From an uncultured Steroidobacteraceae bacterium (GTDB lineage Bacteria > Pseudomonadota > Gammaproteobacteria > Steroidobacterales > Steroidobacteraceae): a stretch of DNA of 64,000 nt. The stretch lies in assembly GCA_964455685.1 (NCBI GenBank), contig CAYVZE010000003.1:119-64118 (forward strand), written 5' to 3'. The number at the start of each line of letters is the position of its first letter. Position 1 is the stretch's first letter. Below are positions 11,982 through 20,597 of the stretch, in pieces. The position numbers and the translations under genes were made by a program. The notes under the pieces were generated by a model that was not told the DNA's origin, did no database searches, and worked only from the letters and a program-made list of their open reading frames with translations.

Positions 11982-14474
11982 TCAGCCGGCGCGCAGCGTC
12001 TGCATGGGCGGCTGGAGCAGCGCCGTGCGCGTGGCCAGCCAGCCCGCCAGGCAGACCAGCAGCGCGCCGGTGAGGGCACCGGAGATCCACAGCAGCGGAT
12101 CCGGCTGCCACGGGATCTCCAGCATCGAGCGCGCGATGTAGAACGCGCCTGTCGACGCGCCGGCGGCCGCGACCACGCCCGCCATCACGCCGATGGCGCA
12201 GAACTCCGCCAGCACGCCACCCAGCACCGTGCGGCGCGAGGCACCCAGCGTGCGCAGGATGGCGCTCTCGTAGCGGCGCTCGTCGCGGGTGGCCTGCACG
12301 GCCGCCAGCAGCACCACGATGCCGGCCAGCAGCGTGAACAGGAACACCGCCTGCACCGCCAGCACCGCCTTCTCGATGATGGAGCGCACCTGCTCCAGAA
12401 GGTCGTCCATGTCGAAGATCGACACACCGGGGAAGCGGCGCACCAGCTCGGCCACGTCGGCCGGATCCGTGGGGCGGAAGCGCGCGCTGCCCATCCACGT
12501 GCCGGCAGTGCCTTCGAGCAGGCCCGGCGGGAACATCAGGAAGAAGTTGGGCTGCAGGCTGTCCCACTGCACGCGGCGGAAGCTGCTCACGGTCACCTCG
12601 ACCGTCTCGCCGGCCACGTCGAAGGTCAGCCGGTCCCCCAGCGCCAGCGGGATGGATTCCTCGAGGTCGGTGGCCACCGACACCAGCGGCTGGCCGAAAT
12701 CCTCGGCATCGAACCACTCACCGGCCGTCACCGTGTTGTCCGGCCCGATCTCGGCCGCCCAGGTGAGGTTCTGCTCGCGACTGGCCAGCCCCTCGCCGCG
12801 CGGCGTGAGGTAGCGGCGCTCGCCCACCGGCTCGCCGTTGATGGCGGTCATGCGGCCGCGGATCATCGGCAGCATGCGCGTCATCTCGCCGCCCTTCGCC
12901 GCCAGCAGGTCACGGAAAGCGTCGCGATCCTCGGGCGGGATGTTCACGAAGAAGTAGTTGGGCGCGTCCTGCGGCAGGCGCGCGCGCCAGTCGTCGATCA
13001 GGTCGCCGCGGATGATGGTGAGCAGCAGCAGCGCCGACAGGCCCAGGCCCAGCGCCACGATCTGCACGATGCTCTCGGCGCGCCGGCGCGCGATGTTGGC
13101 CGCGCCGAAGCGCCACGCGGCACCCATGCCGCCGCGCAGCCGGCCGGTCAGCAGCACCAGCAGCCAGCCGCCCAGTGCCAGCGCCGCCAGCACCCCTGCA
13201 AGGCCGACGAGGAACCAGATCGACAACCTCACGTCGCGCGTCACCCAGTGGATCAGCAGCACAACGGCCAGCACTGCCGGGCCATAGGCCACCAGCGTGC
13301 CCAGCCTCGGCGCCCCGATGTCACGCCGGAGCACGCGGATCGCCGGCACGCGCGCCAGCTGCAGCATCGAAGGCAGCGCGAAGCCAGTGAGCAGCAGCAA
13401 CGCGGTCGAGAAGCCCATGGCCACCGGCTGCCAGCCGGGCGGCGGCAGGTCCACCGTCACCACGCCCTGGAGCAGCAGCAGGAGCCCCTGCTGGGCAAAG
13501 TAGCCCGCCACAGCGCCGGCGAGCGAGGCCGCCAGCGCGATACAGGCGAGCTGCGCAAGGCTGATGGCCAGCACCATGGCGCGCGAGGCGCCGAGGGTCT
13601 TCAGCAGCGCCGCCAGGTCCAGGTGGCGCTTCACGTAACGGCGCGCCGTCATCGCGATGGCCACCGCGCACAGCAGCACACCCGCGAGGCTGGCCAGCAG
13701 CAGGAACCGGCCGGCGCGCGAGCGGGCATTGCTGATCTCCGGACTGGCCTCGGCAATGTCGCGCAGGCGCTCGGCCGGCTTCATGTTGTCGCCCAGCCAG
13801 GCGGCGAATCCGGATGTTTCCCGTTCACCGCCCGCGAACAGCGCCGAGTAGGTGACGCGGCTGCCCGGCTGCACCAGTCCGCTCGCGGCCACGTCGGCAG
13901 CGTTGATCAGCACCGCAGGAGCCAGGTCCACGAAGCCGGAGCCCTGGTCTGGCCGCGCGATCAGCACGCGCGTGACACGCAGGTCCAGCTCGCCCACCGA
14001 GAGCAGGTCGCCGACGCGCGCATTGAGCGCGGCCAGCAGCCTTGAATCGGGCCAGATCTCACCCGGCGCCGGGATGCCAGCTGCGACAATGCCCTGCCCG
14101 AAAGGCTCATCGGCCACCCGCACCGTGCCTCGCAGCGGGTAGCCCACGGTCACGGCGTGCACATTCGCCAGCTGCGTCAGGTCGTCCTTCAGGATCACCG
14201 ACAGCATGGAGGTGACGCGCGCGCTGGCCAGGCCGCGCCGCGCAGCCTCATCGTCGTAGGCCGACTCGATGGTGTCCGGGGAGGTGAGCCTGAGGTCTGC
14301 GGCCAGCACCTCGCTGGCCTGCAGGCGCATCGCACGATCGATGCGATCGACCAGGAATCCTACGCCGGTGAGCGCCGCCACCGCGATGAACAGCGCCAGG
14401 AACAGCACCGCGAGGTCGCCTGAACGCCATTCGCGCCCGAGCGTCCGCAGACCCAGCGACAGCGCGATGCGCAT
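11982..14474 (-). CDS. ybbP: FtsX-fold ABC transporter permease, YbbP-like (duplicated FtsX domain, 830 aa)
   Basis: Size, duplicated 4-TM FtsX-like modules, and the stop/start junction with the upstream ybbA-like ATPase. The tesA/ybbA/ybbP arrangement is as in E. coli. Confidence 0.8.
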   Translation of the reverse strand: MRIALSLGLRTLGREWRSGDLAVLFLALFIAVAALTGVGFLVDRIDRAMRLQASEVLAADLRLTSPDTIESAYDDEAARRGLASARVTSMLSVILKDDLTQLANVHAVTVGYPLRGTVRVADEPFGQGIVAAGIPAPGEIWPDSRLLAALNARVGDLLSVGELDLRVTRVLIARPDQGSGFVDLAPAVLINAADVAASGLVQPGSRVTYSALFAGGERETSGFAAWLGDNMKPAERLRDIAEASPEISNARSRAGRFLLLASLAGVLLCAVAIAMTARRYVKRHLDLAALLKTLGASRAMVLAISLAQLACIALAASLAGAVAGYFAQQGLLLLLQGVVTVDLPPPGWQPVAMGFSTALLLLTGFALPSMLQLARVPAIRVLRRDIGAPRLGTLVAYGPAVLAVVLLIHWVTRDVRLSIWFLVGLAGVLAALALGGWLLVLLTGRLRGGMGAAWRFGAANIARRRAESIVQIVALGLGLSALLLLTIIRGDLIDDWRARLPQDAPNYFFVNIPPEDRDAFRDLLAAKGGEMTRMLPMIRGRMTAINGEPVGERRYLTPRGEGLASREQNLTWAAEIGPDNTVTAGEWFDAEDFGQPLVSVATDLEESIPLALGDRLTFDVAGETVEVTVSSFRRVQWDSLQPNFFLMFPPGLLEGTAGTWMGSARFRPTDPADVAELVRRFPGVSIFDMDDLLEQVRSIIEKAVLAVQAVFLFTLLAGIVVLLAAVQATRDERRYESAILRTLGASRRTVLGGVLAEFCAIGVMAGVVAAAGASTGAFYIARSMLEIPWQPDPLLWISGALTGALLVCLAGWLATRTALLQPPMQTLRAG

Positions 14475-15145
14475 CAGGCCAGCCTGCCCGCCACCATGGT
14501 CAGGCGCCGCTGGCAGCGCGCCGCGAGCTGCCCGTCATGCGTCACCAGCACCAGCGTCGTGCCCGACTCCCGGTTCAACTCGAACAGCAGCTGGCAGATG
14601 CTCTCGCCCGTGGCCGTGTCGAGGTTGCCGGTGGGCTCGTCGGCGAACAGCACCGCGGGCCTCGTCACGGATGCGCGTGCCAGCGCCACGCGCTGCTGCT
14701 CACCGCCGGAGAGCTGGCGTGGATAGTGGCCGACCCGGCTGCCGAGCCCCACGCGCTCGAGCATGGCGCGCGCCGTGCCGGCCGCATCGCGCCGGCCGCC
14801 CAGCTCCAGCGGCAGCATCACGTTCTCCAGCGCGGTCAGCGAAGGCACGAGGTGGAATGCCTGGAACACGAAGCCGACGCGGTTCGCGCGCAGCGCCGCG
14901 CGCTGGTCCTCGTCCAGCCGCGTAAGCTCCTCGCCGTCGAGCCAGACCTGTCCCGACGTGGGCACGTCGAGCCCCGCCAGCATGGCCAGCAGCGTCGACT
15001 TGCCCGCCCCCGAAGCCCCCACCAGCGCCACCGTTTCGCCCGCTTCGATGCTCAGCGAGACGTCGCGGACAATGGTCAGTTCGCCCTCCGGACTGTTAAC
15101 CTTTCGGGTCAGATCCCTGGCTTCGAGAACGGTCTTGCGCTGCAT
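14474..15145 (-). CDS. ybbA: ABC transporter ATP-binding protein, YbbA-like
   Basis: ATG 15145 (MQRKTVLEARDL). Walker A GASGAGKST, signature LSGGEQQRVALARA, Walker B LFADEPTGNLD. Collinear with E. coli YbbA as recalled. Confidence 0.9.
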   Translation of the reverse strand: MQRKTVLEARDLTRKVNSPEGELTIVRDVSLSIEAGETVALVGASGAGKSTLLAMLAGLDVPTSGQVWLDGEELTRLDEDQRAALRANRVGFVFQAFHLVPSLTALENVMLPLELGGRRDAAGTARAMLERVGLGSRVGHYPRQLSGGEQQRVALARASVTRPAVLFADEPTGNLDTATGESICQLLFELNRESGTTLVLVTHDGQLAARCQRRLTMVAGRLA

Positions 15146-15755
15146 CCGGATTCTGTTACTCGCGCTGTTGTCGATCGGGGTGGCCGCCGCCGGCGCTCCG
15201 CAGGAACGCACCCTGCTCGTCTTCGGCGACAGCCTCAGCGCGGCCTACGGCCTGAAGGCCGAGGAAGGCTGGGTGACGCAATTGCAGAACCGGCTCCGCC
15301 AGCAAGGTTACGTTTACAAGGTGGTGAATGCCAGCGTCAGCGGCGAGACCACCGCCGGCGGGCGCAACCGCCTTGCCCGCGCGCTCGATACCCACCAGCC
15401 CGCGATCGTGATCCTGGAGCTCGGCGCCAATGACGGCCTGCGCGGCCTGCCCGTGCCGGCCGCGCGCGAGAACCTCGGCGCGATGATCCGCGCAGCGCAG
15501 GAACGCAAGGCCAGGGTGCTGCTGGTCGGCATCCAGATGCCGCCCAACTACGGGCCGCGTTATGCCGAGAGCTTCGCAGCCATGTACCCGCAGCTCGCGC
15601 AGGAACACAAGGTGCCGCTGGTGCCCTTCCTGCTGGAGGGCGTGGCGCTTGATGACCGGCTGATGCAGGCCGACGGATTGCATCCCAATGCAGCGGGCCA
15701 GCCCCGGCTGCTCGAAAACGTCTGGGCACACCTGCTGCCCTTGCTGGAGCGATGA
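15135..15755 (+). CDS. tesA: SGNH arylesterase / acyl-CoA thioesterase I / lysophospholipase L1 (TesA-like)
   Basis: GDSLSAAYG (Ser block I), SGETTAGG, LGANDGLRG, DGLHPN (block V). The start is placed at TTG 15135 just before the signal-like LRCIRILLLALLSIGVAAA and is uncertain. It overlaps the divergent ybbA start by about 11 nt. Confidence 0.75.
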   Translation: MRCIRILLLALLSIGVAAAGAPQERTLLVFGDSLSAAYGLKAEEGWVTQLQNRLRQQGYVYKVVNASVSGETTAGGRNRLARALDTHQPAIVILELGANDGLRGLPVPAARENLGAMIRAAQERKARVLLVGIQMPPNYGPRYAESFAAMYPQLAQEHKVPLVPFLLEGVALDDRLMQADGLHPNAAGQPRLLENVWAHLLPLLER

Positions 15756-17428
15756 TCATGAGCGTGGACCGTATCTGGCTGAAGTCCTATCCGCCGGAGG
15801 TTCCCCACGACATCGATCCGGGCCAGTACTCCTCGCTGGCCGAGCTGATCTGCGAAGCGCTGCGGAAGCACGCTGACCAGCGCGCCTATGTGCTGCTCGG
15901 CCACGCGGTGACCTTCCGCGAGGTCGATCGCCTGTCGGCCGCGTTTGCCGCCTGGCTCCAGTCGAAGGGACTGAAGAAGGGCGACCGCATCGCCCTGATG
16001 CTGCCGAACGTGCTGCAGTATCCGGTTGCCATGTTCGGCGCCCAGCGTGCCGGCCTCGTGGTCGTCAACACCAATCCCCTGTATACCGCGGACGAACTGC
16101 GCCACCAGCTGCAGGACTCCGGCGCCGCCGCCATCCTGGTGCTGGAGAACTTCGCCCATACCGTGCAGGAGGTGCTCGCCGACACGCAGCTCAAGCACGT
16201 GCTCGTCACCGGCGTCGGCGACCTGATACCCGGCGCCAAGGGGTGGGCCGTCAACTTCGTGCTGCGCCATGTGAAGCGGGAAGTCCGGCCGTGGAACATC
16301 CCGCAGGCCGTGCGATTCAAGGCGGTCCTGGACGAATTCGACGGCCGCATGCCCGCCCCAGTCCAGCTCGGCCACTCCGACCTCGCGTTCCTGCAGTACA
16401 CCGGCGGCACCACCGGCGTGGCCAAGGGCGCCATGCTGTCGCACGGGAACATGGTCGCCAACGTGCTGCAGTCCGAGGCCTGGTTCAGCCAGATCGCCCT
16501 CGACAACGCCACCTTCTATTTCGCGCTGCCGCTCTACCACATCTTCTCGCTGACCGCGAACTGCCTGCTCAGCCTGCGGCGCGGCGCCGTCGGCATCCTC
16601 GTGCCCAATCCGCGCGACTTCCCCGGCTTCGTGAAGCTGCTGCAGAAGGAACCGCCCAACTGCTTCCTCGGCGTGAACACCCTGTTCAATGCGCTGATGA
16701 ATACGCCCGGCTTCGAGCGCATTGATTTCAGCAAGCTCGTCGCCACCGTCGGAGGCGGCATGGCCGTGCAGGCCGCCGTGGCCAGGCGCTGGCTGGAGCT
16801 GACTGGATGCCCGCTCGCCCAGGGCTGGGGCCTCACCGAGACCTCGCCCGTGGTTGCCGTCTGCCGCCTGCGGGACCGGGAGTTCACCGGCGCCGTCGGC
16901 CTGCCGGTGCCCTCCACCGAGGTCTCGATCCGCGATGACGACGGGAAGGACGTGGGACTGAACACCGCGGGCGAGATCTGCGTCCGCGGCCCCCAGGTCA
17001 TGCAGGGCTACTGGAACCGTCCTGACGAGACCGCAAAGGTCATGCTGCCCGACGGCTGGCTCCGCACCGGCGACATCGGCCGCATGGACGAGGCCGGGTT
17101 CGTCTACATCGAGGATCGCAAGAAGGACATGATCACCGTGTCCGGCTTCAAGGTGTACCCGAACGAGATCGAGGACGTCGCAGCCAGGCATCCCGGGGTA
17201 TTCGAGGCCGCCGCCATCGGCGTGCCGGACGAGCGCTCGGGCGAGGTCGTAGCGCTTTACGTGGTCAGGAAGGACCCCTCACTGACGGAGGAAGACCTGA
17301 TCGCTTACATGCGGAAGCATGTGACTTCTTACAAGGTTCCCCGGCAAGTGCATTTCAGGAAGGAATTGCCGAAGACGAATGTGGGGAAGATTTTGCGGCG
17401 GGCGTTGAGGGATGCGCCGAATTCGTAA
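15752..17428 (+). CDS. fadD: long-chain fatty acid-CoA ligase
   Basis: Collinear with E. coli FadD as recalled: WLKSYPPEVPHDIDP, MLPNVLQYPVAMFGAQRAGLVVVNTNPLYT, YTGGTTGVAKGAMLSH, GWGLTETSP, GWLRTGDI, KVYPNEIE, GKILRR. The ATG overlaps the tesA stop. Confidence 0.9.
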   Translation: MIMSVDRIWLKSYPPEVPHDIDPGQYSSLAELICEALRKHADQRAYVLLGHAVTFREVDRLSAAFAAWLQSKGLKKGDRIALMLPNVLQYPVAMFGAQRAGLVVVNTNPLYTADELRHQLQDSGAAAILVLENFAHTVQEVLADTQLKHVLVTGVGDLIPGAKGWAVNFVLRHVKREVRPWNIPQAVRFKAVLDEFDGRMPAPVQLGHSDLAFLQYTGGTTGVAKGAMLSHGNMVANVLQSEAWFSQIALDNATFYFALPLYHIFSLTANCLLSLRRGAVGILVPNPRDFPGFVKLLQKEPPNCFLGVNTLFNALMNTPGFERIDFSKLVATVGGGMAVQAAVARRWLELTGCPLAQGWGLTETSPVVAVCRLRDREFTGAVGLPVPSTEVSIRDDDGKDVGLNTAGEICVRGPQVMQGYWNRPDETAKVMLPDGWLRTGDIGRMDEAGFVYIEDRKKDMITVSGFKVYPNEIEDVAARHPGVFEAAAIGVPDERSGEVVALYVVRKDPSLTEEDLIAYMRKHVTSYKVPRQVHFRKELPKTNVGKILRRALRDAPNS

Positions 17429-18235
17429 TCAATCCCGAAGATCGCTTCCCTCAGATCCCCTCTTCCGCTTGGCTCCAGGAAAGCCTCCGACTCCAAGACC
17501 ATCCCCCAAGTAAGCAATCACCTGAACACCAGCAAGAACACCACGACCCTGCTTAGCTCTTGAGCTCTTTCTTGGGCGCATTCTCCGCTGCTCCATCCAA
17601 TCATCGACCACCTGCAAGTACGAATGCCCCTGAGCCTTCGTGAAATTGCAGAAGGCATCAATCTCATCCCTTTGGAGATCAGAAACGTAGGCAAATCGCT
17701 CTATCAGAGTTCCTTTTCCTGCACCCAGCGAGGAGTTCCGCCGGATAGTTCGGATCAGCCTATTAACCGACTTAACCAAGTGCTCGGCCACAAACTGTCC
17801 TTTATGTGAAATCATGCCGGCATCATTTGCCGGCAAGAAGCGGCCATCCGACTGCTTCTTAATAAGGCCGGAAGAAATCAGAAAACTCTCGACATTCGCA
17901 ACATTAACTTGAGGATCAAGGCTCCGGATCATCTCCCTGATGCTTTCCTTACCTCTTCTCAGGTGAAGTGGCTTCGGTCGCGCCACATCAGCATCCAGAT
18001 ACTTCTCATCCCGGTGCCAGAGGCGCATCAAATCTGCCGACAAATCTCCGCATTGCAGGTACGCCCCACTCTTCGCCTTTCGCGACCCTCTCCTTTTTCT
18101 TCTCAGATCACTCAGGCATGTATCAACGCCTGCCTGAATGTCCTCTATGGTCGCACCAGCTTCCATGAGAACTTCGAACACCCCTTCCAGCAGTGAAGCC
18201 TGCAGCCGTCTTGGAATTCTCTTCGCCCCTGACAT
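17429..18235 (-). CDS. hypothetical protein, island paralogue A (HTH/winged-helix-like family)
   Basis: ATG 18235, 19 nt after the stop of paralogue B. Shares collinear motifs with B and C: LMEAGAT near residue 25, LWHRDEKYL..P..LHL, and a winged-helix-like VESFLISSGLIKKQSDGRFLP. Lower-G+C DNA. Confidence 0.55.
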   Translation of the reverse strand: MSGAKRIPRRLQASLLEGVFEVLMEAGATIEDIQAGVDTCLSDLRRKRRGSRKAKSGAYLQCGDLSADLMRLWHRDEKYLDADVARPKPLHLRRGKESIREMIRSLDPQVNVANVESFLISSGLIKKQSDGRFLPANDAGMISHKGQFVAEHLVKSVNRLIRTIRRNSSLGAGKGTLIERFAYVSDLQRDEIDAFCNFTKAQGHSYLQVVDDWMEQRRMRPRKSSRAKQGRGVLAGVQVIAYLGDGLGVGGFPGAKRKRGSEGSDLRD

Positions 18236-18254
18236 TCGCGAGTTCCCGTCCGCC

Positions 18255-19052
18255 CTATGATTCTAGTTCTTCAGTAATTAGCACAACGCGCGCACGGGCG
18301 ACCTTGAGTTTCTTGCTCTTCAAGGTTTTAGACCCTCTGGCCGTCGCACACGCCATTTCCCTCACGCCGGAAAGAAATACCCTCAATCCATCCTCTGCTC
18401 TCTTATGCAAGAGTACCTTTCCGACGTCGGAAGGCGCTGGGAAACTGACTTCGAGATTGATTGCCTTCAGCGGCACTGGGGCGCTTGCGCACTCGGCGTT
18501 GTCCAGCAACCTTGCCAGAGACCTCGATATCAGGTTGAGGCGATATTCCGCCTTCCCCAAAGACTTCCCTGTAGCCAGCGAGACGTAGCCACCGCGGACC
18601 GTGACCAAACCATGGCGCTGCAGCTCCCGAAGGATCGAGCGCGGTGGAACGTCTCCGCCATATCTCCGCACCAATGCCGGAAAATTCCTTCCTTGCCCAC
18701 CGAGGCGAAGCCTCCTAGGCAAAGAGGAGGCTTTCAAGAACGCTGCATCCGTTGTCCAACCTTCTATGAGTTGGTCAAGCCGATCTTGCACGGAAATCGG
18801 CATGGCGCGGGCCTGCTTGGCAAACTGCCGCACTTGGACTCTTGTGAGCCCGGTCATTGCGGCAACAGCGGACTGATTAATTCTCTTGTTACTGAATCTC
18901 GCTGCACGAGATGCGGCGAGGAAGTAGCCCATTCGAACAATGCGCTCAAATCGCCTAGAACTGACCCCAGCTTCAATGAGATACCGGGCGAACTCCGTCA
19001 TGAATTGGACAGCGTCGGATTCGATACCTGGCTTCTTTCTCCTGAAAGTCAC
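18255..19052 (-). CDS. hypothetical protein, island paralogue B (HTH/winged-helix-like family)
   Basis: GTG 19052. The N-terminal length before LIEAGVS matches paralogues A and C. HTH-like SAVAAMTGLTRVQVRQF, then GWTTDAAFL..LPRRLRL, then winged-helix-like ILRELQRHGLVTVRGGYVSL. Confidence 0.55.
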   Translation of the reverse strand: MTFRRKKPGIESDAVQFMTEFARYLIEAGVSSRRFERIVRMGYFLAASRAARFSNKRINQSAVAAMTGLTRVQVRQFAKQARAMPISVQDRLDQLIEGWTTDAAFLKASSLPRRLRLGGQGRNFPALVRRYGGDVPPRSILRELQRHGLVTVRGGYVSLATGKSLGKAEYRLNLISRSLARLLDNAECASAPVPLKAINLEVSFPAPSDVGKVLLHKRAEDGLRVFLSGVREMACATARGSKTLKSKKLKVARARVVLITEELES

Positions 19053-19164
19053 AACACTTGGCTAGGCTCTCTCTGCTTAACGCAGCGACGCACATTGTCC
19101 CGCGCTCATGTCACCGCACTGCAACCTGTCTTTCTCCTGATTCTGACAAGAAAGACAAATCGAG

Positions 19165-19200
19165 ACACAAAAACAAAAGCGCCGCCCCGGGGGGCGGCGC
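19165..19200 (-). terminator. intrinsic terminator downstream of the small repeat-protein gene
   Basis: GC hairpin gcgccgcc/ggcggcgc (19179..19200). On the minus strand it is followed by TTTTGTTTTTGTGT (19165..19178). It lies 36 nt after the stop codon at 19237. Confidence 0.65.
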
Positions 19201-19236
19201 CTTTGTCAAACTCACTACTGAGCGAATTCCAGCCGA

Positions 19237-19545
19237 TTAAGGAGTCGGCCGGCCAGTGCCAATCTGGCGCTTCTGCTTCACCCCAGTGCCGATCTGGCGC
19301 TTCTGCTTCACGCCAGTACCGATCTGGCGCTTCTGCTTCACGCCAGTACCGATCTGGCGCTTCTGCTTCGTACCAGTGCCGATCTGGCGCAGAGACGTAG
19401 CGGTACCGAACGAGGAAACCGCCGAAGACTGCACAGAGGTTTCGAACAGGCCCTCCTGCTTCTCGCCAGCGACAGCGCTGACGCTGAGCGCGGAGGCAGC
19501 AATCAAAGAACCAGCGATGGCCAAAATCGAGAATATACGTGACAT
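19237..19545 (-). CDS. small secreted protein with tandem decapeptide repeats (QIGTG[VT]KQKR, 4.5 copies)
   Basis: ATG 19545 preceded by GGGAG (9-nt spacer). Sec-type signal peptide MSRIFSILAIAGSLIAASALSVSA-VAG. Has its own promoter-like element and terminator. Same orientation as the neighbours. Confidence 0.6.
   Translation of the reverse strand: MSRIFSILAIAGSLIAASALSVSAVAGEKQEGLFETSVQSSAVSSFGTATSLRQIGTGTKQKRQIGTGVKQKRQIGTGVKQKRQIGTGVKQKRQIGTGRPTP
19254..19390. repeat. tandem 30-bp direct repeat, 4.5 near-identical copies (cagtRccRatctggcgcttctgcttcRYRc)
   Basis: Read directly: units start at 19254, 19284, 19314 and 19344, with a partial unit at 19374. There are 1-4 substitutions per unit. 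The units are contiguous with no spacers. Confidence 0.95.
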
Positions 19546-19595
19546 AAGTTGAAACTCCCACACACCGTTCTTCTGGTCCCGGATGTCGCCGGTCC

Positions 19596-19627
19596 GTGAC
19601 GCGCGTCACATAAGGGACGGCTTATGT
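19596..19627. promoter_or_regulatory. two overlapping inverted repeats in the leader of the small gene (candidate operators or RNA hairpins)
   Basis: Perfect 14-bp palindrome GTGACGCGCGTCAC (19596..19609). ACATAAG-N6-CTTATGT (19608..19627). Both lie between the predicted -10 and the start codon. Confidence 0.4.
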
Positions 19628-19638
19628 AACGTTTCCCG

Positions 19639-19667
19639 AAAATATGTGAGCAGGATCACTATGTCAA
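19639..19667 (-). promoter_or_regulatory. sigma70-like promoter for the small repeat-protein gene
   Basis: The minus strand reads TTGACA (19667..19662), 17 nt, then TATTTT (19644..19639). It lies about 95 nt upstream of ATG 19545. Confidence 0.45.
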
Positions 19668-19691
19668 GGAGATATGTAAAGGCGGATTCTG

Positions 19692-20597
19692 TCAGGCCGG
19701 GGCCCGTGGCTTTGAAATCCAGGCCTTGGGCTGATCCTCCGGGCGTTTTTCGATATACGAAGAAAGGGGGGAGATGTCGTAGTCTTCAGCAATGTGGTGG
19801 AAGGCCGTGAGGCCCGTTGTCACTCGCTTGCCCGGCTCCGTCCAATGGACCTTGTTGCTGCTGATCCAGTCGTCAATGTCGTTGAGAAGCTTCTGGACCT
19901 TGTCTTTCAGGAGACCCTCAAATTCCGGGAGGACATACTCAGGAAGCTCATCCTCAATCACCGATCGCTGAAGCCTCTTTTGCCCAGTTTCAGACCTGAT
20001 GTTGTGCAGAATGGTGTTTGCGAGGTCGGTGATTGCGGAGCCGAAATATTCCAAAGCTTGGGGCGTTAGAACGTCCGTGAAAACCATTGTTCGCGCAGTA
20101 GCGCGATAGTGTTTTGGGCCGACGGGCTTAACCACTTCCCATTCGATCATGTCGCGCAACACAGCCTTGGGATTTGCGGTCGGATCGGCGCGAAATATGA
20201 GGGTGCTGAGGTTCTTACCTGGCGTTTCTTCCAAATCGAGCTCAAGCGGCAATCCATAAGGGCCAATGTAGTCGGGGTCTGTGCACCAAAGGAACAAGAC
20301 TTCCGAAACAACGGCCGCATTGGTCGGTTCCGGCGGCGCCAACAAACTCTGGTCATCTATAAACCTGTTCACATCCGCCAACGGAACCTCGGTGTAATCC
20401 GAAACCATCGCCCGCGTCAGCGGCCCCTGGTGCCCGCGGATCCCGTCCCTCACTGCGGCCTCCACGTAGGCGCCCTTCAGCACCTCCCGGAACTCCTGGT
20501 ACGAGACTCCCGCGCGCAGCAGGATGCGGATCATCGGCTTCAGGATCTTCCGGAACGAGAAGATCAGCTGCGCACGGGCGGCATCGCGTAGACGCAT
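19692..20597 (-). CDS. hypothetical protein, island paralogue C (HTH/winged-helix-like family; DUF6502-like from memory, unverified)
   Basis: ATG 20597, 3 nt after the dgt stop, with AGGAG inside the last dgt codons. LLRAGVSYQEFREVLKGAYVEAA, LWCTDPDYI..LPLELDL, and winged-helix-like VLRDMIEWEVVKPVGPKHYRA. The first about 66 codons are high-G+C; the rest is low-G+C. Confidence 0.6.
   Translation of the reverse strand: MRLRDAARAQLIFSFRKILKPMIRILLRAGVSYQEFREVLKGAYVEAAVRDGIRGHQGPLTRAMVSDYTEVPLADVNRFIDDQSLLAPPEPTNAAVVSEVLFLWCTDPDYIGPYGLPLELDLEETPGKNLSTLIFRADPTANPKAVLRDMIEWEVVKPVGPKHYRATARTMVFTDVLTPQALEYFGSAITDLANTILHNIRSETGQKRLQRSVIEDELPEYVLPEFEGLLKDKVQKLLNDIDDWISSNKVHWTEPGKRVTTGLTAFHHIAEDYDISPLSSYIEKRPEDQPKAWISKPRAPA

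What the first reader, a model, noticed from the sequence alone, without database searches (positions are those of the whole stretch)
17429..20597. Low-G+C island between fadD and dgt: three divergent paralogues of one uncharacterised HTH/winged-helix family bracket a secreted repeat-peptide gene
Hand counts on 60-nt lines inside 17.7-20.4 kb give about 47-55% G+C. The flanking fadD, dgt and aroB lines give 68-73%. The island has no integrase, transposase, tRNA or obvious terminal repeats. Its three larger ORFs (268, 265 and 301 aa, all minus strand) are homologous to each other but highly diverged. They share collinear motifs. (1) About 25 residues in: L(M/I/L)(E/R)AG(A/V)(T/S). (2) A W..D..(Y/F)(L/I) ... 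P..L.L block (LWHRDEKYL / GWTTDAAFL / LWCTDPDYI). (3) A winged-helix-like segment (VESFLISSGLIKKQSDGRF / ILRELQRHGLVTVRGGYVSL / VLRDMIEWEVVKPVGPKHY). I see no catalytic motif. Between paralogues C and B sits an independently promoted and terminated gene for a small exported repeat protein. I cannot map this four-gene arrangement to any described system. Candidate readings are a regulator set controlling or sensing the secreted peptide, or a variable module exchanged by recombination.
Basis: partly seen in the sequence, partly recalled or inferred. Interest (0 to 1): 0.7.

Follow-up and report, generated by a model that had tools for sequence, protein, structure and literature searches.

The report
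Triplicated DUF6502 regulators with exported repeat-peptide
The low-G+C stretch is not a foreign island but an inherited, expanded version of a widespread and unstudied two-gene unit (a DNA-binding-type DUF6502 protein plus an exported partner protein), and its closest structural and organisational resemblance, still unproven, is to the cyanobacterial HetR/PatX peptide-signalling pair.

Summary
There is a G+C dip of 50-60% against 65-73%, driven by GC3 of 0.54-0.71 against 0.84-0.94. Three minus-strand paralogues are present (A 268, B 265, C 301 aa), all DUF6502. Between C and B lies a separately promoted and terminated gene for a signal peptide plus 5 x QIGTGVKQKR.

The 'island' reading fails. 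The same C-repeat gene-B-A block, with the same low G+C, sits at the dgt-fadD junction in every related Steroidobacteraceae/gammaproteobacterial contig examined, at C identities of 37-93%.

DUF6502 is a large family (5,310 clusters at 50% identity) found in several phyla. There it is single-copy and is followed directly by an exported DUF5666 lipoprotein (55/58 metagenome loci plus 6/6 look-ups). That partner usually carries G-I-x-G-T/S-G just after its lipobox. The window's array is that motif amplified, with the DUF5666 domain lost.

A, B and C are specialised duplicates of the single-copy form. B keeps a basic HTH, C's HTH helix is acidic, and A lacks it. B and A evolve far faster than their neighbours. 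Two composite operator-like units bracket the small gene's promoter.

A confident C model (pLDDT 86) matches only HetR in the PDB (probability 0.82-0.98, E about 5e-3, TM about 0.3), with no sequence signal. Regulator function is likely; PatX-like peptide sensing is possible but unproven.

The parts
19692..20597 (-). Paralogue C (301 aa), a DUF6502 protein. It starts 3 nt after the dgt stop, so it is probably co-transcribed with aroK-aroB-dgt. It evolves slowly. Its HTH-equivalent helix is conserved but acidic (ADVNRFIDD).
   Evidence: ORF. (PF20112, 2e-19, 70 bits). (124 homologues, 42-93% identical). (AF2, pLDDT 85.8). (top four PDB matches are HetR). (HTH segment, evolutionary rate).
19639..19667 (-). 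Sigma-70-type promoter-like site of the small gene: -35 TTGACA at 19667-19662 and -10 TATTTT at 19644-19639.
   Evidence: The TTGAC and TCACAT elements are invariant or nearly so in 16 aligned relatives. Function is inferred.
19646..19679 (-). Composite operator-like unit 1: TTACATATC (19679-19671), 11 nt, then GTGATCCTGCTCAC (19659-19646). It overlaps the -35 and -10.
   Evidence: These motifs occur only here and in unit 2 in the 64-kb window. One search shows the copy in the promoter spacer is also present in L010-L012. Protein binding is inferred.
19596..19629 (-). Composite operator-like unit 2: TTACATAAG (19629-19621), 11 nt, then GTGACGCGCGTCAC (19609-19596; with its flanks, TGTGA-N6-TCACG, a CRP-type consensus). 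It lies in the transcribed leader, 50 nt from unit 1.
   Evidence: The ACATAA box and the GTG...TC.C half-sites are invariant while the 6-nt spacer varies. The palindrome is exact in 14 of 24 loci, with only 2 other hits in 275 kb.
19237..19545 (-). Small exported repeat-protein gene (102 aa from the ATG at 19545). It encodes a Sec-type signal peptide MSRIFSILAIAGSLIAASALSVSAVA|GE, about 27 further residues, then the repeats and a short tail.
   Evidence: A gene with the same build lies between C and B in 25 of 25 loci. The signal peptide is judged by inspection (n-, h- and c-regions, AVA-G cleavage site), not by a predictor.
19252..19401 (-). Tandem array of five 30-nt units encoding QIGTG(T/V)KQKR four times, plus a final QIGTG. 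This is an amplified G-I-x-G-T/S-G motif.
   Evidence: Units differ mainly at synonymous third positions. The period is a multiple of 3 in all relatives (8-12 aa).
19172..19207 (-). Intrinsic terminator of the small gene: a 16-pair stem with a GC-rich core, followed by a T-run.
   Evidence: The hairpin and T-run are conserved in 6 relatives.
19094..19124 (-). Promoter-like elements ahead of B-A: TTGCAG at 19124-19119 and GACAAT at 19099-19094.
   Evidence: GACAAT is nearly invariant and TTGC is conserved in 6 relatives. This is a weak inference only.
18255..19052 (-). Paralogue B (265 aa), a DUF6502 protein. It retains the basic helix-turn-helix (NKRINQSAVAAMTGLTRVQVRQF, residues about 55-77), which makes it the likeliest DNA-binding subunit. 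It evolves fast.
   Evidence: PF20112, 1.4e-15. (recurrent weak HTH-family hits at residues 55-79 across the B family). (the HTH is the most conserved segment). (50% identity to L009 where neighbours are 86-91%)..
17429..18235 (-). Paralogue A (268 aa), a DUF6502-related protein that lacks the ~30-residue HTH segment. It evolves fast. It lies 19 nt downstream of B and its stop abuts the convergent fadD stop.
   Evidence: 20.8 bits, below the cut-off. (hhalign to C: 99.2%, with a gap over the HTH). (99.8% to the single-copy family)..

Best explanation
The block is a vertically inherited, lineage-specific elaboration of a widespread two-gene unit that has never been studied.

In many phyla the unit is one cytoplasmic DUF6502 protein with three parts: an N-terminal helical domain carrying a basic helix-turn-helix, a central winged-helix-like module, and a C-terminal helical part. 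Its gene is followed at once, often with overlapping stop and start codons, by a gene for an exported DUF5666 lipoprotein. The Gly-rich tether of that lipoprotein usually carries G-I-x-G-T/S-G.

In the Steroidobacteraceae lineage of this window the DUF6502 gene was duplicated into three specialised copies, and into four in one relative.
- C is slow-evolving, sits at the end of the aroK-aroB-dgt operon, and has an acidic HTH helix.
- B is fast-evolving and keeps the conserved basic HTH.
- A is fast-evolving and has no HTH.

The partner gene became a separate transcription unit. Its motif was amplified into a tandem array, and here its DUF5666 domain was lost.

Most likely mechanism (inferred): the DUF6502 proteins are transcription factors, with B as the DNA-reading subunit and C and A as modulating partners. 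They control the exported-protein gene through the two composite TTACATAWS-N11-GTGA-N6-TCAC units that overlap and follow its promoter.

Shown: the anatomy, the paralogy, the synteny, the pairing statistics, the conservation of the cis-elements, and the evolutionary rates. Inferred: DNA binding, the target, heteromer formation, and any feedback from the exported protein.
For: Not an island:
- C-repeat gene-B-A lies between dgt and fadD in all loci with enough flank.
- Low G+C and low GC3 are conserved in relatives.

Paralogy and origin:
- hhalign gives C-A 99.2%, C-B 98.7% and B-A 97.2%.
- The single-copy family matches C at E = 2.9e-39, B at 1.1e-38 and A at 7.2e-28.

Family size and spread:
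- 5,310 representatives at E <= 1e-3.
- Named members come from Syntrophobacteria, Nitrospirae, Burkholderiales, Binatia, Gammaproteobacteria and Salinisphaera aquimarina.

Pairing with the exported partner:
- 6 of 6 look-ups and 55 of 58 metagenome loci have a DUF5666 gene directly downstream.
- The partners have a lipobox followed by GIGGTG, GIEGTG or GIGGSG.
- In-module partners still carry DUF5666 in some relatives (L035: 3.9e-10, 40 bits).

Regulator character:
- The single-copy form has a basic HTH, TGLTRK(D/E)VxRL.
- The B HTH is the best-conserved segment of B and draws recurrent weak HTH-family hits.
- The confident AF2 model shows HTH helices at 62-69 and 73-81 plus a winged-helix-like module.
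- Every PDB match with E <= 1 is a DNA-binding or winged-helix protein or a winged-helix-bearing methyltransferase, led by four HetR entries.

Cis-elements:
- Both motifs occur only in this 150-nt region of the 64-kb window.
- They are conserved across relatives.

The small gene is protein-coding and exported:
- It has a conserved signal peptide, repeat periods that are always multiples of 3 nt, and synonymous differences between units.
- There is no Rfam match.
Against: - No experiment on any DUF6502 or DUF5666 protein was found in the searchable literature.
- DNA binding is inferred from sequence and a predicted fold only.
- C, the best Pfam match, has an acidic 'recognition' helix, and A has none, so at most one of the three looks like a conventional DNA reader.
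- The palindrome is a near-perfect CRP/Clp consensus (TGTGA-N6-TCACG). It could therefore belong to a global CRP-family regulator rather than to B.
- The palindrome is absent in the clade where C is only 41-42% identical (L005, L024, L026, L027). The change in the B recognition helix there (Q to E) also occurs in L012, which keeps the palindrome.
- Translational coupling of a cytoplasmic protein to an exported lipoprotein would equally fit a non-regulatory partnership.
- The persistently low GC3 of the block remains unexplained.
Confidence: 0.55

Rival explanations
1. PatX/HetR-like peptide signalling. The exported repeat protein would be a polyprotein precursor. After Sec export it would be cut into many copies of a short x-I-G-T-G-x peptide. 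The peptide would re-enter cells and bind the C-terminal part of the HetR-like DUF6502 proteins, changing their DNA binding. This would parallel HRGTGR from PatX acting on HetR. The fast-evolving B, A and repeat spacers would define strain-specific signal-receptor pairs.
For: - The confident C model has HetR as its top four PDB matches, collinear over about 300 columns (probability 0.82-0.98, E = 3.9e-3 to 7.4e-3). The earlier poor model also ranked HetR first. The authors of the HetR structure called its flap and hood novel folds (PMC4649674).
- The HTH helices sit at the same place: C at 62-81, HetR at about 62-76.
- PatX is Sec-exported, must be exported to act, and is cut to HRGTGR, which binds HetR (PMC12756182).
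- Here the partner is always exported and always carries a G-T/S-G core. Only that core is conserved, while period (8-12 aa), spacer sequence and copy number are free. That pattern suits a released short peptide better than a fixed structural repeat.
- B and A are only 48-50% identical to the closest relative's copies, while C and the neighbours are 86-91%, as in diversifying signal-receptor pairs.
Against: - There is no sequence-level link to HetR: no Pfam HetR hit in 57 family members, hhalign probability below 1%, and a 251-sequence profile scores HetR at -1.3 bits.
- Foldseek E-values miss 1e-3, and global TM is only 0.24-0.32 with rmsd 11-14 A.
- The model's C-terminal part is helix plus coil, not the alpha-beta-alpha-beta hood.
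- The motif is hydrophobic-G-T-G, not R-G-S/T-G-R. The acidic HetR residues that grip the PatS arginines have no demonstrated counterpart.
- In the widespread form the motif sits in the tether of a large lipoprotein that would stay membrane-anchored.
- No peptidase or peptide importer is linked to the block.
- Gly-rich tethers after a lipobox are common, so part of the motif may be compositional.
Confidence: 0.18
2. Non-regulatory partnership. The DUF6502 proteins would be cytoplasmic handling factors for the exported partner, for example a dedicated pre-export chaperone or targeting factor, or an enzyme that modifies the G-I-x-G-T/S-G motif before export. They would not be transcription factors.
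For: - Stop and start codons overlap or nearly overlap between DUF6502 and the DUF5666 gene in the single-copy unit (-11 to +12 nt; mostly -4). This suggests stoichiometric co-production of physically interacting partners.
- The conserved motif lies right after the signal peptide or lipobox, where pre-export recognition would act.
- C and A lack a credible DNA-reading helix.
Against: - No invariant catalytic-type residues (His, Cys or Ser triads, nucleotide-binding loops) appear in 24-115 sequence alignments.
- The single-copy form and B keep a canonical basic HTH, which is the most conserved segment.
- All structural neighbours are DNA-binding or winged-helix proteins.
- In this module the partner gene has been uncoupled into its own regulated transcription unit with operator-like sites.
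Confidence: 0.15
3. Horizontally acquired or recombination-exchanged variable island. Low G+C would mark foreign DNA inserted between fadD and dgt, or a cassette swapped between strains.
For: - G+C and GC3 are clearly atypical for this genome.
- B, A and the repeat spacers differ strongly even between close relatives.
- Some B identities do not track flank identities. L016 B is 45% identical with aroB at 82%, while L013 B is 31% with aroB at 81%. Allele exchange among relatives is one possible reason.
Against: - The block is present at the same junction, in the same order, in all relatives examined, across flank identities of 60-91%.
- C tracks the flanks in close relatives (90% against 86-91%).
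- There is no integrase, tRNA or terminal repeats.
- The low G+C is shared by all relatives, so it is maintained rather than recently imported.
- C is tucked 2-3 nt behind dgt, as the last gene of a housekeeping operon.
Confidence: 0.07
4. The repeat acts at the DNA or RNA level, as iterons, a protein-sequestering RNA or a CRISPR-like array, and the small ORF is incidental.
For: - Each 30-nt unit contains a short hairpin (CGCCAG-N7-CTGGCG), which the terminator scan picked up.
- The arrays are highly homogeneous within a genome.
Against: - The repeat period is a multiple of 3 nt in all 25 loci despite varying from 24 to 36 nt.
- An in-frame Sec signal peptide is always present.
- Differences between units are mostly synonymous and break the hairpin.
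- The amino-acid core is conserved while the DNA is not.
- The same motif occurs singly in large DUF5666 lipoproteins.
- There is no Rfam match.
Confidence: 0.03

Closest known systems
Pfam DUF6502 (PF20112), a family of unknown function
   Same: C and B score above the Pfam cut-off over most of the 268-position model. A joins through profile-profile links. Length (265-301 aa) and single-domain build are typical of the family.
   Different: The typical family member is single-copy and translationally coupled to a DUF5666 lipoprotein gene. Here there are three specialised paralogues. One has an acidic HTH helix and one has none. The partner gene is separately transcribed.
HetR with PatX/PatS/HetN in filamentous cyanobacteria: a transcription factor inhibited by an exported, processed RG(S/T)GR peptide
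   Same: - The proteins are the same size (about 300 aa).
- Both have an N-terminal helical domain with the HTH at about residues 62-80, followed by a central module and a C-terminal module.
- HetR is the only PDB fold that matches C over its full length.
- Both have a partner that is Sec-exported and carries a short G-T/S-G-centred motif (PMC12756182).
- Both have palindromic DNA elements at the partner or target promoter.
   Different: - There is no detectable sequence homology, and the global structural superposition is poor (TM about 0.3).
- The motif is I-G-T-G, not R-G-S/T-G-R.
- The motif is tandemly amplified, or sits in a lipoprotein tether, rather than at the C-terminus of a small protein.
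- The regulator and partner genes are adjacent here. In Anabaena, patX (asl2332) and hetR (alr2339, locus tag from my memory) are several genes apart.
- The hosts are non-cyanobacterial and, as far as known, unicellular.
- There are three paralogues instead of one homodimeric protein.
DUF5666 (PF18914) exported proteins
   Same: - The gene at the equivalent position in relatives (L035, and more weakly L024, L027, L033) carries DUF5666 domains plus the same repeats.
- Single-copy DUF6502 genes are followed by DUF5666 lipoproteins carrying the same G-I-x-G-T/S-G motif.
   Different: The window's small protein has no DUF5666 domain and no lipobox. It is reduced to a signal peptide, a short linker and the amplified motif.
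RRNPP-type receptor-peptide cassettes of Firmicutes (Rap-Phr, NprR-NprX, PlcR-PapR), cited from general knowledge
   Same: A gene for a cytoplasmic HTH-type receptor lies adjacent to a gene for a small Sec-exported precursor. The receptor-precursor pairs diversify rapidly between strains.
   Different: There are no TPR domains and the fold is unrelated. The hosts are Gram-negative. No peptide processing or import has been shown. This is an analogy only.
CRP/Clp-type operator, TGTGA-N6-TCACA
   Same: The leader palindrome TGTGACGCGCGTCACG matches 9 of 10 consensus positions. Its half-sites are conserved while the spacer varies.
   Different: It lies downstream of the predicted -10 rather than at about -41 or -61. 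It is coupled at a fixed 11-nt distance to a TTACATAWS box and is duplicated 50 nt upstream. The protein that binds it is unknown.

Membership tests
Pfam DUF6502 (PF20112) | Whole-protein score at or above the Pfam gathering cut-off (27 bits): proteins C and B | tested here: met
   C scores 70 bits (2e-19, model positions 7-260 of 268). B scores 57.4 bits (1.4e-15, model positions 9-157). All 24 C-family and all 17 B-family members hit the model.
Pfam DUF6502 (PF20112) | Whole-protein score at or above the gathering cut-off: protein A | tested here: not met
   A scores 20.8 bits (1.9e-4), below 27. 13 of 16 A-family members hit at E <= 10, the best at 6e-9. Homology is nevertheless shown by hhalign: 99.2% to C and 99.8% to the single-copy family. 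A lacks the HTH segment.
HetR family (transcription factor of filamentous cyanobacteria) | Sequence homology to HetR | tested here: not met
   No HetR-family Pfam hit appears in 57 members at E <= 10. hhalign of the C, B and A profiles against Anabaena HetR (sequence verified as PDB 4HRI) gives probabilities of 0.2-0.5%. A 251-sequence DUF6502 profile scores HetR at -1.3 bits.
HetR family (transcription factor of filamentous cyanobacteria) | Three-domain fold: DNA-binding domain with HTH, then flap, then hood | tested here: inconclusive
   The AF2 model of C (pLDDT 85.8, pTM 0.70) has as its top four PDB hits 4izz_A, 4j00_A, 4hri_B and 3qod_A. These have E = 3.9e-3 to 7.4e-3, probability 0.82-0.98 and 304-328 aligned columns, but TM 0.24-0.32 and rmsd 11-14 A. 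The next hit has E = 4.4e-2. The model's C-terminal part lacks the beta-strands of the hood. No domain-wise superposition was possible.
HetR family (transcription factor of filamentous cyanobacteria) | Intertwined homodimer that binds a palindromic DNA site | not testable with these tools
   No multimer prediction or experiment was available. Palindromic sites do exist at the partner promoter, but the protein that binds them is unknown.
PatX/PatS-type inhibitor peptide precursors | N-terminal Sec signal sequence and export | tested here: met
   The N-terminus MSRIFSILAIAGSLIAASALSVSAVA|GE was read by inspection. Equivalent signal peptides occur in all 25 loci, and lipoboxes in the single-copy partners. 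No signal-peptide predictor or export assay was run.
PatX/PatS-type inhibitor peptide precursors | RG(S/T)GR motif | tested here: not met
   The motif here is Q-I-G-T-G. In relatives it is I/V/N/E-G-T/S-G or AIGGT. In single-copy partners it is GIGGTG, GIEGTG or GIGGSG. Only the G-T/S-G core is shared.
PatX/PatS-type inhibitor peptide precursors | Proteolytic release of a short peptide that binds the regulator | not testable with these tools
   This needs peptidomics and binding assays. No linked peptidase gene was seen in the block.
DUF5666 (PF18914) exported proteins | Presence of a DUF5666 domain in the window's small protein | tested here: not met
   The window protein matched no Pfam family. 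The positional equivalents in relatives do match: L035 at 40.3 bits (3.9e-10), and L027, L024 and L033 below the cut-off.
Horizontally acquired genomic island | Atypical base composition | tested here: met
   G+C is 0.52-0.58 against 0.66-0.68 in the flanks. GC3 is 0.54-0.71 against 0.84-0.94.
Horizontally acquired genomic island | Mobility signatures: integrase or transposase, a tRNA target, flanking direct repeats | tested here: not met
   No tRNA in the window. No convincing terminal repeats. Only the four genes lie between fadD and dgt.
Horizontally acquired genomic island | Patchy presence among relatives at an otherwise conserved junction | tested here: not met
   The block is present between dgt (or pyrF in one clade) and fadD in all loci with enough flank. 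Caveat: the loci were retrieved through C or its paralogues, so relatives that lack the block would not have been sampled.

The most novel reading that the evidence does not exclude
The DUF6502-DUF5666 gene pair could be an ancient, multi-phylum relative, or the ancestral type, of the cyanobacterial HetR-PatX pair. HetR is currently regarded as a cyanobacterial invention tied to multicellularity. In that case the Steroidobacteraceae array would be a bacterial 'polyprotein' precursor. It would release many copies of an x-I-G-T-G-x peptide that is sensed by a heteromeric set of HetR-like paralogues. The rapid co-diversification of B, A and the repeat spacers would then create strain-specific signalling types in a Gram-negative soil lineage.
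Probability: 0.15. Interest if true: 0.9.

Novelty: new variant of a known kind. Interest (0 to 1): 0.62.

Why it matters
Two Pfam families of unknown function turn out to form one tightly linked gene pair. DUF6502 alone has more than 5,000 sequence clusters across several phyla. The pair joins a cytoplasmic HTH protein to an exported protein that bears a conserved short motif, and nothing has been published on either family.

If the fold-level resemblance to HetR is real, HetR would stop being an orphan cyanobacterial invention. The origin of the HetR-PatX activator/inhibitor pair would become testable.

The Steroidobacteraceae version offers a natural experiment, with three sub-functionalised paralogues, a tandemly amplified motif and very uneven evolutionary rates. 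A cultured carrier of the simple form exists (Salinisphaera aquimarina), which makes experiments feasible.

The finding is also a caution. A sharp, persistent G+C and GC3 dip can mark an old, vertically inherited, fast-evolving locus rather than foreign DNA.

Tried and rejected
- NCBIfam, PADLOC and PHROGs scans of the four proteins gave nothing meaningful. The weak Cas8f, Cas5f and endolysin hits (E > 0.01) were dismissed as noise.
- Profile searches of the C and B families against PDB sequences gave only chance hits such as NanoLuc and histone H4, at E >= 0.18.
- The first AF2 model, built on a 24-sequence alignment, was too poor to use (pLDDT 60) and its Foldseek result was not trusted. A 115-sequence superfamily alignment fixed this.
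- The BFVD viral fold library gave nothing below E = 0.046.
- HetR homology at the sequence level was tested three ways and rejected.
- Copy-number differences of the repeat between contigs that encode an identical C (8, 10 and 11 copies in L002, L001 and L003; 2 versus 8 in L008 and L005) looked like a hypervariable tandem repeat. I do not rely on this. Most of these are short-read assemblies, which cannot size arrays of near-identical 24-30-nt units, and several arrays contain N-runs or frameshifts (L016, L020, L029).
- I looked for co-variation between the B recognition helix and presence of the palindrome. It is imperfect (L012) and phylogenetically confounded.
- An RNA-level reading of the repeat and of the leader palindrome was considered. 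The half-sites are invariant rather than covarying, and Rfam is silent.
- Pfam did not detect DUF5666 on the longer repeat proteins until the repeat array was trimmed off.
My first downstream-gene rule under-counted partners (33 of 58) and was corrected to 55 of 58.

Full report
**1. The observation**

For the small gene the sensible start is the ATG at 19545, which gives 102 aa.

G+C in 300-nt windows drops to 0.50-0.61 between about 17.25 and 20.4 kb. On either side it is 0.65-0.74. The drop is mostly at third codon positions: GC3 is 0.54 (A), 0.60 (B), 0.70 (C) and 0.71 (small gene), against 0.84-0.94 in fadD, the GDSL lipase gene and pilQ.

The window has no tRNA. The block has no convincing terminal repeats. 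The four proteins match no defence, phage or NCBIfam model.

The small gene carries a 30-nt tandem repeat (19252-19390, 4.6 copies, 92% matches). It also has a TTGACA-17-TATTTT promoter-like site and a strong terminator-like hairpin.

**2. Paralogy**

BLASTP barely connects the three proteins: A-B E = 4.9, A-C E = 0.004, B-C E = 4e-8. Pfam places all three on DUF6502: C at 70 bits, B at 57 bits, and A at 20.8 bits, below the 27-bit cut-off.

I collected orthologues from related contigs and compared family profiles. The results were C-A 99.2% (E = 1.8e-19, 234 columns), C-B 98.7% (E = 3.9e-16, N-terminal 139 columns) and B-A 97.2%. A lacks a segment of about 30 residues that in B and C holds a helix-turn-helix-like motif.

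**3. It is not an island**

C has 124 detectable homologues at 42-93% identity, and those that are named come from Steroidobacteraceae. Context look-ups and a scan of one genome per species gave 26 genome loci plus several metagenome contigs. Wherever enough flank exists the order is pilMNOPQ-aroK-aroB-dgt-[C-small gene-B-A]-fadD (convergent)-GDSL lipase-ABC/FtsX.

There are two variants. One clade has pyrF between dgt and C. One contig has four DUF6502 genes.

Identity to the window ranges from 90% (C) with 86-91% (flanks) in the closest relative, down to 37-42% (C) with 60-71% (flanks) in the most distant. The depressed G+C and GC3 are present in the relatives too. C begins 2-3 nt after the dgt stop codon in the window and in the relatives checked, so it is most likely the last gene of that housekeeping operon.

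Recent acquisition is therefore excluded. One caveat applies: the loci were found through C or its paralogues, so relatives without the block could not be seen.

**4. The gene between C and B**

In 25 of 25 loci the C-B gap holds a gene for a Sec-type signal peptide followed by a tandem array. The unit differs between lineages:
- QIGTGVKQKR (the window)
- QIGTGGKGGR
- QIGTGATGSR
- KIVGTGATGS
- GIIGTGADGE
- SGIVGSGEKA
- LGINGTGRDQG
- GSIGTGTA
- GIQGTGAT(I/T)
- AIGGTNVQ and AIGGTRLR in the most distant loci

Only a hydrophobic-(x)-G-T/S-G core is constant. The period runs from 8 to 12 residues and copy number from 2 to about 28.

The period is always a multiple of three nucleotides. The signal peptide is always in frame. 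In the window the units differ at synonymous third positions five times and at one amino acid. No Rfam family matches. The array is therefore constrained as protein, not as DNA or RNA.

Some relatives have an additional globular domain before or after the array. Once the array is trimmed away, this domain is recognised as DUF5666: L035 scores 40 bits at 3.9e-10, and three others score below the cut-off.

Apparent copy-number differences between contigs that encode an identical C may be assembly artefacts. I do not build on them.

**5. The wider family**

An exhaustive profile search found 5,310 cluster representatives (50% identity clusters) at E <= 1e-3, nearly all 250-300 aa. A branch that is single-copy per locus includes members named from Syntrophobacteria, Nitrospirae, Burkholderiales, Candidatus Binatia and Gammaproteobacteria, plus the cultured Salinisphaera aquimarina.

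In 6 of 6 informative look-ups the DUF6502 gene is followed within -11 to +12 nt by a DUF5666 gene, amid otherwise unrelated neighbours. In a metagenome scan, 55 of 58 loci with enough downstream sequence show the same pairing.

These partners are lipoproteins. Right after the lipobox cysteine comes a Gly-rich tether that usually contains GGGIGGTG (also GIEGTG, GIGGSG or GISGTG, sometimes twice), immediately before the first DUF5666 domain. The motif is present in 34 of the 55 partners.

The window's array is therefore an amplification of an ancestral motif of the partner protein. In the single-copy loci the DUF6502 gene has the G+C of its genome, so the G+C dip is specific to the Steroidobacteraceae module.

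**6. Origin and specialisation of A, B and C**

The single-copy profile matches C at E = 2.9e-39 (261 columns), B at 1.1e-38 (216 columns) and A at 7.2e-28 (236 columns, skipping the HTH). Each match is far stronger than the matches of A, B and C to each other. All three therefore descend from the single-copy form and have kept different parts of it.

The single-copy HTH is basic (TGLTRK-D/E-V-x-RL). B keeps a basic and almost invariant version (N-x-R-x-NQSA-x-AA-x-TGL-T/S-R-x-Q-V-R), which is the best-conserved stretch of an otherwise fast-evolving protein. That stretch draws recurrent weak hits to HTH families. In C the equivalent helix is conserved but acidic (ADVNRFIDD). A has none.

The rates are very uneven. 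Against the closest relative, C is 90% identical while B is 50% and A is 48%. The flanking genes are 86-91% identical.

**7. Cis-elements**

Sixteen relatives were aligned over the region upstream of the small gene. The conserved elements are a -35 TTGAC, a TCACAT(A/T) -10 region, an invariant ACATAA box, and a GTGA-N6-TCAC palindrome whose half-sites are fixed while the spacer varies. The palindrome is exact in 14 of 24 loci, and only two other exact copies occur in 275 kb of locus sequence.

In the 64-kb window, GTGA-N6-TCAC occurs only twice (19596-19609 and 19646-19659). TTACATAWS also occurs only twice (19621-19629 and 19671-19679; 0.07 expected by chance). All four sites lie in this one 150-nt region.

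They form two copies of a composite unit, TTACATAWS-N11-GTGA-N6-TCAC, spaced 50 nt apart. One copy overlaps the -35 and -10. The other lies in the leader. This layout is what one expects for a repressor or another dedicated regulator, but the binding protein is unknown.

With its flanks the leader site is also a 9/10 match to the CRP/Clp consensus. The clade in which C is only 41-42% identical lacks the palindrome. It has instead a leader hairpin with a compensatory change (GCCAC/GTGGC against GCCGC/GCGGC).

The terminator after the small gene is conserved, and promoter-like TTGC...GACAAT elements precede B.

**8. Fold**

With a 24-sequence alignment AlphaFold gave a poor model (pLDDT 60). With a 115-sequence alignment spanning the C, A and B families it gave pLDDT 85.8 and pTM 0.70. 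The model has:
- two long N-terminal helices
- HTH helices at 62-69 and 73-81
- a helix at 93-106
- a winged-helix-like module (helices 130-137 and 143-152, strands 156-159 and 163-166)
- long helices at 179-201 and 220-249
- a C-terminal tail

Foldseek against the PDB found nothing at E <= 1e-3. The top four hits are all HetR: 4izz_A, 4j00_A, 4hri_B and 3qod_A. They have E = 3.9e-3 to 7.4e-3, probability 0.82-0.98 and 304-328 aligned columns, but TM 0.24-0.32. The next hit, ScpB, has E = 4.4e-2. After it come winged-helix and HTH regulators and winged-helix-bearing methyltransferases. The earlier poor model had also ranked HetR first.

HetR is a protein of about 299 aa. It has a DNA-binding domain (1-98, HTH helices alpha4-alpha5 with DNA contacts at residues 62-76), a flap (99-216) and a hood (217-299). 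The authors of its structure called the flap and hood novel folds. It forms an intertwined dimer, which could explain a poor rigid-body fit to a monomer model (PMC4649674).

Sequence methods find no link at all. I therefore treat the HetR resemblance as a fold-level lead of moderate strength, not as established homology.

**9. Why the HetR lead is worth stating**

HetR is inhibited by RG(S/T)GR peptides. Its ancient partner PatX has a Sec signal peptide and must be exported to act. A periplasmic peptidase cuts PatX to HRGTGR, which binds HetR (PMC12756182). The literature regards hetR as having arisen within cyanobacteria (PMC12669612).

The unit described here has the same logical parts: a cytoplasmic HTH protein of the same size and general layout, and an obligatorily exported partner that carries a short conserved G-T/S-G-centred motif. 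In the Steroidobacteraceae version only that motif is conserved, and it is multiplied.

The differences are substantial:
- The residues flanking the motif are hydrophobic rather than arginines.
- In the widespread form the motif sits in a lipoprotein tether.
- No peptidase or importer is linked to the block.
- There is no sequence homology to HetR.

**10. Verdict**

Shown:
- The block is inherited, not acquired.
- A, B and C are specialised duplicates of a single-copy DUF6502 gene.
- The small gene is a reduced, motif-amplified descendant of the DUF5666 partner.
- The DUF6502-DUF5666 pairing is general, at about 95% of loci.
- A conserved, locally unique operator-like architecture surrounds the small gene's promoter.

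Inferred:
- DUF6502 proteins are transcription factors, with B as the DNA reader, that control the exported partner. My confidence in the overall mechanism is about 0.55.

Possible:
- PatX/HetR-like peptide feedback (about 0.15-0.2).

Unexplained:
- Why this inherited block keeps a GC3 that is 0.2-0.4 below its neighbours in every lineage.
- Why B and A evolve so fast.
- What DUF5666 domains do.

Noticed in passing
window 17429-20597, and the same genes in L010, L019 and L026: The low GC3 of A, B and C (0.46-0.70 against about 0.8-0.9 for neighbours) persists in every lineage, even though the block is vertically inherited. Single-copy DUF6502 genes in other phyla have the G+C of their genomes. 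Amelioration should have erased a foreign signature long ago, so something maintains the dip. Candidates are weak codon selection, fast evolution, or a need for relatively AT-rich DNA.
   Followed up: partly
L005, L024, L026 and L027, leader of the repeat-protein gene (about 100-125 nt after the C stop codon): In the clade where C is 41-42% identical, the GTGA-N6-TCAC palindrome is replaced by a leader hairpin with a compensatory change: GCCAC-N7-GTGGC in L024 against GCCGC-N7-GCGGC in L027. Two tandem ACATAAC boxes precede it. This could be an RNA structure or a different operator.
   Followed up: no
window 19034-19054 and 19129-19149 (minus strand): A 21-nt direct repeat, 81% identical, reads TTGT(G/C)A..TCAGGAGAAAGA. 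One copy spans the GTG start of B and the other lies 95 nt upstream, followed by a 10-codon mini-ORF (MSAGQCASLR). It could be a leader peptide or a duplicated ribosome-binding region, or it could be chance.
   Followed up: no
L035 6001-11340: One relative has four DUF6502 genes at the dgt-fadD junction. Two C-like copies lie in tandem, followed by the repeat gene with DUF5666 domains and about 20 GIQGTGAT units, followed by two more copies. Paralogue number is therefore not fixed at three.
   Followed up: partly
L032 and L033 (C-like protein 27-32% identical to the window's C): In the most distant module-type loci the repeat is AIGGTNVQ or AIGGTRLR, the DUF5666-like domain is C-terminal to the array, a B-like gene lies on the opposite strand, and no A-like gene was found. 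The L032 array gives a sub-threshold match to the T4 gp5 beta-helix octapeptide repeat (PF22178, 2.2e-5, 25 bits).
   Followed up: partly
L010 7075-7521 (the repeat protein of a relative): The QIGTGATGSR array scores above the Pfam cut-off for Pentapeptide_2 (PF01469, the mycobacterial PPE-type Gly-rich repeat; 2.5e-7, 30.9 bits). This is probably a compositional match, but it is the only curated family that any of these arrays reaches.
   Followed up: no
L001/L002/L003 and L005/L008: Contigs that encode an identical C protein differ in repeat copy number: 10, 8 and 11 copies, and 8 versus 2. This could be genuine rapid tandem-repeat variation, or repeat collapse in short-read assemblies. Long-read population data would decide.
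   Followed up: partly
L005-L007 7288-7998; L004 3244-5109 and L036 1-406: The conserved pilQ-aroK-aroB-dgt stretch has lineage-specific insertions. One clade has pyrF between dgt and C. Other relatives have a large Big_1/MG-domain protein between pilQ and aroK.
   Followed up: no
window 14474-17428: Next to the block lies a GDSL-lipase gene divergent from an ABC-ATPase/FtsX-permease pair, plus fadD. This resembles the tesA-ybbA-ybbP arrangement of E. coli (from memory). It is conserved in all relatives and appears unrelated to the module.
   Followed up: no
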